Origin: Vicugna vicugna
Lineage: Eukaryota
NCBI GenBank assembly: GCA_013265495.1
Contig: MU057577.1
Coordinates: 7,692-47,967 of the forward strand
DNA length: 40,276 nt
Direction of reading: 5' to 3'
Part shown: one piece after another, positions 5,052 through 5,603 of the stretch
Layout: each line of letters starts with the position of its first letter
Position numbering within the stretch: position 1 is the stretch's first letter
Notes under the pieces: generated by a model
What the model was told of the DNA's origin: nothing
The model's input: the letters and a program-made list of their open reading frames with translations, nothing else
The model's database searches: none
Position numbers and translations under genes: made by a program

Positions 5052-5157
5052 GGTTGGTTCCAAAACCAACGAAGAAGAAGCCTAAGGCATAGCCGACCGC
5101 CATCGGAGAACATCTTACCAGACTGGCAATCGCATCATGTGCACGACCCTGAGTTTG
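5052..5157 (+). pseudogene. DUXC: DUXC-like exon 3 (recognition helix WFQNQR plus linker)
   Basis: Acceptor ttttctccttctacttag|5052. Open translation GWFQNQRRRSLRHSRPPSENILPDWQSHHVHDPEF with the usual V before WFQN replaced by G. Putative phase-1 donor G|gtaaca at 5157/5158. Confidence 0.85.
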
Positions 5158-5603
5158 GTAACAAATTTCGACGCAGAAACGTGGAGCTGCACTCTCTCAG
5201 TGGTCAGGGTCCTCTGGGCTTCCTTCTTGCAGCTTCTGGTGGTGAGAACACTCAGGGTCGTGTGTGAAGTGCCAGCCACCTGTGGCAAGCTGGCCAGAAA
5301 GGGTTTCTCAGGAAAGTCCCAGCATTTCCTGCAAATGATCATCCTGGGGATTCTGTCCATCTGTCCCCTGCCCAGAACTGGCTGCCAGTTTTCACTTAAA
5401 GTTGGTGGGGATGAATTCTAACTTCTAAAATGAACTTTAATATTTGAAATAAACACTGGATCACACCTGTTAGAAGTAAAATTTTAATACCCACTTTCCT
5501 CTAGGACTTCTTCAATCACAGTGTAAAATTGAAAAAGAAATCAGGTTAGTACTGAATTAAAGCAACAAAATAGAATCATTCAGAGGCACTGCAGAAACCT
5601 CAC

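What the first reader, a model, noticed from the sequence alone, without database searches (positions are those of the whole stretch)
5157..5460. DUXC half-gene fused to foreign DNA, then amplified as a chimeric duplicon
Seen: about 230 bp into DUXC intron 3 (near 5388) the sequence changes from GC-rich to AT-rich, repeat-laden DNA carrying opposite-strand exon remnants. The same transition occurs in copy B near 29850. Inference: the fusion predates the ~10% diverged duplication, so this is an old chimeric unit that was copied, not a single misassembly. It may be a lineage-specific family of DUXC-HD1 duplicons like subtelomeric or pericentromeric mosaics.
Basis: partly seen in the sequence, partly recalled or inferred. 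Interest (0 to 1): 0.7.

Follow-up and report, generated by a model that had tools for sequence, protein, structure and literature searches.

The report
Camelid DUXC–NEK10 mosaic with internal deletion
This is one decayed copy of a camelid repeat in which the embryo gene DUXC lies tail-to-tail with the end of the kinase gene NEK10, shortened by an old deletion and then copied again; it is a pseudogene patchwork that probably explains a poorly understood repetitive block on camelid chromosome 17.

Summary
(1) The break is inside DUXC exon 3 at 5148-5153, at a short microhomology, not in intron 3. 5154-5423 is the end of an ERV LTR plus primer site and leader. The GC drop near 5388 marks the leader's end. 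(2) Copy B has no HD1: it keeps the whole LTR, the last NEK10 exon and a DUXC intron-4 scrap. (3) The AT-rich block is the 3' end of NEK10 on the minus strand (97% aa identity to alpaca NEK10). Of 19 places carrying the leader, 6 have this junction. Two trees make these one clade, sister to a longer unit broken only in DUXC exon 5. The junction is therefore best read as a ~7.7 kb deletion younger than the 9.7% A/B split. Independent runs of two organisms bridge it. Five of 6 copies have HD1 lesions. Alpaca and wild-camel 'Nek10-like' gene models begin in this unit's DUXC, MAPK1-like or neighbouring parts, linking it to the published alpaca chr17 Nek10-like block, where DUXC was not noted. The scan had other camelid mosaics, not this one.

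The parts
1..5147 (+). 5' half of a DUXC unit (coding start about 1576; exon 2 at 3051-3204 with a 1-nt deletion; exon 3 from 5052)
   Evidence: Pfam Homeodomain E 5e-9; matches the dromedary DUXC protein in the supplement of PMC13558733; C-terminal domain exon lies upstream on the same contig; frameshift
5148..5153 (+). True junction: 3-bp exact microhomology (5 of 6 bp) between DUXC exon 3 and the LTR 3' end
   Evidence: 19 junction regions compared; loose ends at 5150 continue as unbroken DUXC in runs X2, X5, X8
5151..5163 (+). Last bases of an ERV LTR
   Evidence: Dispersed solo LTR matches end here
5164..5423 (+). Primer-binding-site-like 18-mer (tRNA-Lys CTT type) and proviral leader remnant; mistaken for DUXC intron 3
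   Evidence: 13-16 of 18 matches to the genome's own tRNA-Lys 3' end in 12 of 15 copies, 9 of 18 ungapped in 3 copies including A; found only at 19 places, all in this family
5424..15094 (-). NEK10 3' region, copy A: exons 8495-8603, 5604-5656 (nonsense codon), 5467-5522 (nonsense codon, acceptor lost); last exon deleted
15997..19133 (.). NEK10 intron piece to about 16672, then a decayed L1 fragment; the next NEK10 exon falls in the N gap 15095-15997 by comparison with C7807
   Evidence: L1 label from recall
19140..22990 (-). MAPK1-like 5' fragment: CpG island and exon 1 (about 22009-22178, in-frame stop) with intron 1 pieces
   Evidence: PDB search best hits ERK2/MAPK1, E 8e-5; same family at many places
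22993..23420 (+). DUXC intron 4 plus the first 13 nt of exon 5: all that B keeps of DUXC; the older DUXC/NEK10 junction is at about 23420
23421..29077 (-). NEK10 3' flank, last exon (25777-25825) and last intron; a plus-strand terminal exon 25554-26227 overlaps it
   Evidence: tblastn with alpaca NEK10; retrocopy at C7946
29078..29885 (+). Whole LTR (29078-29626, N gap inside), primer site and leader in the last NEK10 intron of copy B
29886..40276 (-). NEK10 3' region, copy B: open exons 33075-33183, 30068-30120, 29930-29985

Best explanation
A camelid higher-order duplication unit reads: MAPK1-like 5' fragment, a short DUXC array that starts in intron 4, a last DUXC unit broken 13 nt into exon 5, then the 3' end of NEK10 in the opposite orientation with an old ERV remnant in its last intron. 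The unit was copied in tandem many times. Shown: the parts, the junctions and the copy classes. Inferred: B-type copies lost their DUXC units by unequal exchange between intron-4 copies. Also inferred: the A-type junction arose once, by a microhomology-mediated deletion of about 7.7 kb in a long (D-type) unit, joining exon 3 to the LTR end and removing HD2 and the last NEK10 exon. A-type units were then re-amplified, also as an A-B dimer, and decayed as pseudogenes. The family is very likely the alpaca chr17 'Nek10-like' block.
For: Junction alignment with microhomology. The D-type contig C2946 holds an open HD2 exon, intron 4 and the exon-5 break, then the NEK10 flank and the full LTR. Tree of 5424-6570: A-type 4 rows one clade 98/98*, sister to D 99/97*. 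Tree of 7218-8170: A 95/95*, A+D 99/97*, B 100/99*. All 4 A rows holding the exon share one nonsense codon in it. All 6 A and the D copy share the base after the LTR end, which 8 of 8 other copies lack. C7807 repeats the A-then-B order at 6.0% and 4.5% divergence. The junction is bridged by at least 31 letters each side in X2 (organism A) and X8 (organism B). NEK10 exons are not better conserved than introns: 35 changes in 109 sites vs 357 in 961, p=0.23. Alpaca model P0124 starts with 16 of 16 residues of the window's MAPK1-like exon, alpaca P0007 starts antisense in DUXC exon 5, and wild-camel P0013/P0121 start at window 20464-20372.
Against: On the DUXC side the A copies are not a clean clade: AU p=0.02 against for 3400-4030 (one row has an internal duplication) and p=0.28 for 4745-5147. 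So later exchange with DUXC arrays, or more than one origin, must be allowed. Only one D-type copy was seen, and its exon 3 lies in an N gap, so the undeleted unit rests on scaffolding. The working NEK10 gene was not located in this assembly. The link to chr17 is through gene models, not a DNA alignment. Bridging is borderline in X5 and not among the listed pieces in X1 (table cut).
Confidence: 0.78

Rival explanations
1. The A junction came from an exchange or template switch between a separate DUXC array and the LTR end of a NEK10 copy, once or several times, rather than from a simple deletion in one unit.
For: DUXC-side trees do not group the A copies; C8528 and C1218 are 10-11% away from the other A copies next to the junction. 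The microhomology is only 3 bp exact.
Against: The NEK10 side groups all A copies with the one unit that still has DUXC attached. A shared nonsense codon and an identical breakpoint in 6 of 6 copies.
Confidence: 0.14
2. A-type units encode a working HD1-only DUXC that competes with full DUXC, as DUXA does with DUX4.
For: Exon 2 is open in at least 2 A copies and nearly identical to dromedary DUXC in C8528. DUX-family antagonism is documented (abstract of 10.1101/2023.01.21.524976).
Against: 5 of 6 A copies carry an HD1 lesion: frameshift (window), lost exon-3 acceptor (C7807), Asn51 change (C8528), lost exon-2 donor (C2877), Trp48 stop (C1218). The sixth stops right after HD1 and lacks exon 2 in its contig.
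Confidence: 0.04
3. One reading: fusion inside intron 3 near 5388 before the A/B duplication, so that both copies are HD1 duplicons.
For: The GC step and the shared sequence in A and B are real.
Against: True intron 3 is absent from the window. B-type copies have LTR and NEK10 sequence upstream. A is a subclade.
Confidence: 0.02
4. Assembly artefact: a chimeric contig, or one locus assembled twice.
For: Gapped short-read scaffolds; a perfect 242-bp tandem at 1122-1606 looks artefactual.
Against: The same junction on 6 contigs, 5.3-7.4% apart on the NEK10 side among the 4 measured. Bridged in runs of other studies. A/B differ by 9.7%.
Confidence: 0.02

Closest known systems
Alpaca chr17 pseudogene-rich 'Nek10-like' block (PMC13751797, section 14 read)
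   Same: Many truncated NEK10 copies alternating with GC-rich repeats. Alpaca Nek10-like models on the same 55.6 Mb sequence as NEK10 carry this unit's MAPK1-like exon.
   Different: The paper does not mention DUX or MAPK (0 hits) and reports single-copy NEK10 in camels. Here DUXC is part of the unit, and a wild-camel model shares one of its joins.
Laurasiatherian DUXC tandem arrays with incomplete end units (cattle: bioRxiv 10.64898/2026.03.05.709741 section 8; dromedary chr17 three-unit array: PMC13558733 section 7)
   Same: Five-exon DUXC with CTD; array bounded by partial units; distal unit with an altered exon 5.
   Different: Here the array ends plus flanking genes are themselves duplicated at 5-11% divergence, and the copies examined are mostly disrupted.
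Dispersed partial D4Z4/DUX4 units on human acrocentric chromosomes (PMC13558733 section 9)
   Same: Truncated DUX copies spread inside mosaic duplications.
   Different: Intron-containing DUXC, not the retrogene; the partners are NEK10, MAPK1 and an ERV remnant.
Mosaic segmental duplications built around core duplicons (recalled)
   Same: Fragments of unlinked genes joined at short microhomologies and re-amplified as higher-order units.
   Different: No expression or selection shown for any part here.

Membership tests
DUXC gene family | Two homeoboxes split over four exons with introns at equivalent positions | tested here: met
   Met in unbroken and D-type copies; the window copy keeps HD1 only
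DUXC gene family | Conserved C-terminal activation domain | tested here: met
   CTD-like motifs in exon 5 upstream on the same contig; recognised by recall and by match of the same exon to dromedary DUXC; no Pfam hit
Functional DUXC gene | Intact reading frame through both homeodomains and CTD | tested here: not met
   Frameshift and truncation in the window; lesions in 5 of 6 A copies
Functional DUXC gene | Expression in cleavage-stage embryos | not testable with these tools
   No suitable RNA run laid
NEK10 3' pseudogene fragment | NEK10 exons in native order with introns | tested here: met
   Best hit alpaca NEK10, 97%, E 1e-15; last four exons mapped in B, three in A
Endogenous retrovirus remnant | TG...CA LTR dispersed as solo copies, followed by a tRNA primer site | tested here: met
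   479 first-look candidates, 40 scored, 75-87% identity outside the family; ends; primer site
Endogenous retrovirus remnant | gag/pol/env, second LTR, target-site duplication | tested here: not met
   The leader runs into NEK10 intron after about 260 bp; the family name was not determined
Mosaic segmental duplication | Over 1 kb, several source loci, many copies at about 90% identity or more | tested here: met
   pairwise differences 0.3-11.6%
Alpaca chr17 Nek10-like block | Position at chr17 2.5-7.5 Mb | tested here: inconclusive
   Contigs unplaced; link through gene models only
Camelid-specific family | Absent from pig, cattle and whales | not testable with these tools
   No other mammal genomes searchable; Nek10-like short models among named hits were camelid (best 120 of 199 listed)

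The most novel reading that the evidence does not exclude
The GC-rich arrays in the alpaca chr17 block are DUXC arrays, so camelid DUXC sits in a megabase, copy-variable DUXC-NEK10-MAPK1 repeat that predates the camel-llama split and is collapsed in camel assemblies. Its flanks may also regulate DUXC: the MAPK1-derived CpG promoter could drive NEK10-fragment transcripts antisense to DUXC, and a sense terminal exon at 25554-26227 could polyadenylate truncated end units, as pLAM does for DUX4. The structural half is likely (about 0.7); the probability given is for the whole, with regulation.
Probability: 0.12. Interest if true: 0.7.

Novelty: new member of a known kind. Interest (0 to 1): 0.36.

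Why it matters
It names the parts of a camelid repetitive block that a 2026 paper left as 'GC-rich repeats with Nek10-like fragments'. It suggests that the published three-unit dromedary DUXC array and the single-copy camel NEK10 may be under-assembled. It warns that 'Nek10-like' gene models in camelid annotations are chimeric pseudogene predictions. As biology it is an ordinary decayed mosaic unless expression is shown.

Tried and rejected
C3685:135427-153391 was first taken as the donor locus. It is about 23-24% diverged, has dead splice sites, lacks the last exon in the stretch searched and lacks the LTR, so it is an older NEK10 pseudogene copy used only as outgroup. Pfam on the 150 longest of the stop-free frames of C3685 130-160 kb (233 were listed for 120-160 kb) found one sub-threshold hit only. 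Constraint on NEK10 exons: not seen. Published alpaca satellites VpaSat04 and VpaSat05 as the DUXC unit: no primer pair matched within 5 mismatches; monomers in the supplement were cut at 400 characters and the slide-file supplement could not be read, so it may bear on chr17. No RNA holder was listed for 4750-5900; this says nothing on expression, and no RNA run was laid. Read depth was higher left of 5140 than right of it in all 4 runs, but summed contig depth is no copy number. No camelid substitution rate was found in the passages read, so absolute dates are not claimed. Searches for prior description: DUXC+camel 1 paper, NEK10+DUXC 0, NEK10+camelid+duplication 2, DUXC+truncated+segmental duplication 2; most subscription journals are outside this library.

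Full report
Source. The window is C433:7692-47967 of a 2.03 Gb gapped mammalian assembly. Its DUX exons match the dromedary DUXC protein printed in a supplement of PMC13558733 (passages seen), and its best protein hit is alpaca NEK10. It is a camelid; its NEK10 residues look more like alpaca than Camelus, which is weak evidence on the tribe.

Observation. GC is 0.556 over 5164-5388 and 0.34-0.40 beyond. The stretch from 5148 recurs from 29611, at 9.7% difference over 9701 aligned bases. So the step and the second copy are real.

Where the break is. A genome search with 4900-6000 gave 52 matches, 40 of 68 candidates scored. Four copies (C11156, C6377, C294, C1482) follow A only to 5150-5153. 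They then finish exon 3 with 13 more bases and a normal donor, and three of them reach the HD2 exon within the stretch fetched. Their 808-bp intron 3 matches nothing in the window. A gap-free B-type copy shows a 550-bp element with TG...CA ends, dispersed as solo copies at 75-87% identity (479 candidates, 40 scored), ending at the equivalent of 5163. After it comes an 18-mer matching the 3' end of this genome's tRNA-Lys(CTT) at 13-16 positions in 12 of 15 copies; random places mostly give 12 or fewer. So 5151-5423 is an LTR end, primer site and leader, and DUXC meets it at a 3-bp exact microhomology (5 of 6 bp).

What the AT-rich block is. The exon at 33075-33183 (minus) hits alpaca NEK10 at 97% and Bactrian NEK10 at 95%. 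tblastn with alpaca NEK10 maps four terminal exons in B and three in A. The lead came from section 14 of PMC13751797 and from recalled NEK10 sequence, then was tested. The ERV remnant sits in the last NEK10 intron. Between A and B lie an L1 fragment (recalled label), a MAPK1-like exon 1 with CpG island, and 430 bp of DUXC intron 4 ending 13 nt into exon 5, where the NEK10 3' flank begins. The gene is DUXC because exon 5 with the C-terminal domain lies just upstream of the window on the same contig; PMC3004920 (passages) gives that domain as the DUXC hallmark.

Copy classes. The leader occurs at 19 places, all scored: 6 with the exon-3 junction (A-type), 10 with the LTR complete on the left, 3 cut by gaps or contig ends. 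B-type units (window B, C7807b, C9332) keep only the intron-4 scrap. C2946 (D-type) keeps an open HD2 exon, intron 4, the exon-5 break, the NEK10 flank and the full LTR, though its exon 3 is in an N gap. C11156 has a third break, later in exon 5. C7807 repeats the A-then-B order of the window. These counts are lower bounds.

Order of events. For 5424-6570 (14 rows; copies too short were left out) the 4 A rows form one clade (98/98*), sister to D (99/97*). A rows differ by 5.3-7.4%, A from B by 10.4%. For 7218-8170 (9 rows): A 95/95*, A+D 99/97*, B 100/99*. A shared nonsense codon marks the 4 A rows checked. The simplest reading is one deletion of about 7.7 kb in a D-type unit (length summed), after the A/B split, followed by re-amplification. 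Against this, the DUXC side does not group the A copies (AU p=0.02 and 0.28), which needs later exchange with DUXC arrays or a more complex origin. With recalled mammalian rates, 5-10% means very roughly 12-45 million years; no camelid rate was found.

Not an artefact. Logan contigs of 4 runs from 4 studies were laid on 4750-5900. Listed pieces bridge the junction clearly in X2 (organism A, one difference in 119 letters) and X8 (organism B), borderline in X5, and none is listed for X1 (table cut). Loose ends at 5150 continue as unbroken DUXC in three runs.

Function. Five of 6 A copies have an HD1 lesion and the sixth cannot be judged. NEK10 exons change as fast as introns (p=0.23). No RNA data were laid. 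A dead mosaic is the best reading.

Known context. PMC13751797 (passages, section 14, spreadsheet supplement) describes 18 Nek10-like fragments between GC-rich repeats on alpaca chr17, never mentions DUX, and finds single-copy NEK10 in camels. PMC13558733 (passages, sections 7 part 1 and 9, supplement hits) puts a three-unit DUXC array on dromedary chr17. Gene models join the two. Alpaca XP_072796961 starts with the window's MAPK1-like exon (16 of 16 residues). Alpaca XP_031530340 starts antisense in DUXC exon 5. Wild-camel XP_032313930/2 start at window 20464-20372 and continue into the last NEK10 exons. That the 20.4-kb segment is unique to the mosaic was checked only within fetched loci. 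Cattle arrays also end in a unit with altered exon 5 (bioRxiv 10.64898/2026.03.05.709741, abstract and section 8). No paper in the library holds both NEK10 and DUXC.

Verdict. A real, previously unlinked camelid DUXC-NEK10-MAPK1 mosaic duplication; the flagged junction is a secondary deletion in one subfamily. New member of a known kind, modest interest.

Noticed in passing
L050:1-1790 (G000:C7946:1700000-1701790): Processed retrocopy of a chimeric transcript: TRAPPC9-like (recalled) and ankyrin-repeat exons (Pfam Ank_2; ANKRD26-like by recall) spliced to the acceptor at window 25554, with a poly(A) tract at the equivalent of 26227. This plus-strand exon, antisense to the last NEK10 exon, was once used as a terminal exon.
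   Followed up: partly
window 20540-22540 vs C11077, C2951, C2585, C614, C7608, C6695, C9390 and others: A second, older family of MAPK1-like 5' fragments at 68-74% identity; possibly a core duplicon.
   Followed up: no
G000:C3685:135427-153391: Older NEK10 3' pseudogene copy, about 23-24% diverged, without the LTR.
   Followed up: partly
G000:C4069:73751-75580, C10383:849234-850101, C2459:35129-35913: Older DUXC-related sequence at 73-76% identity (upstream region, or exon 5 alone); the last two may be dispersed or retroposed copies.
   Followed up: no
window 1122-1606: Perfect 242-bp tandem duplication over the DUXC start region; a recent event or an assembly artefact.
   Followed up: no
G000:C9332:13300-18400: Recent 2.3-kb tandem duplication (0.3% difference) starting inside the LTR and doubling two NEK10 exons.
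   Followed up: partly
L033 (G000:C11156, about 34100): A third DUXC break about 150 nt into exon 5, joined to sequence unrelated to the window.
   Followed up: partly
P0007, P0012, P0013, P0121, P0124: RefSeq 'Nek10-like' camelid proteins are chimeric models whose first exons come from DUXC antisense, intronic or MAPK1-like parts of this unit.
   Followed up: yes
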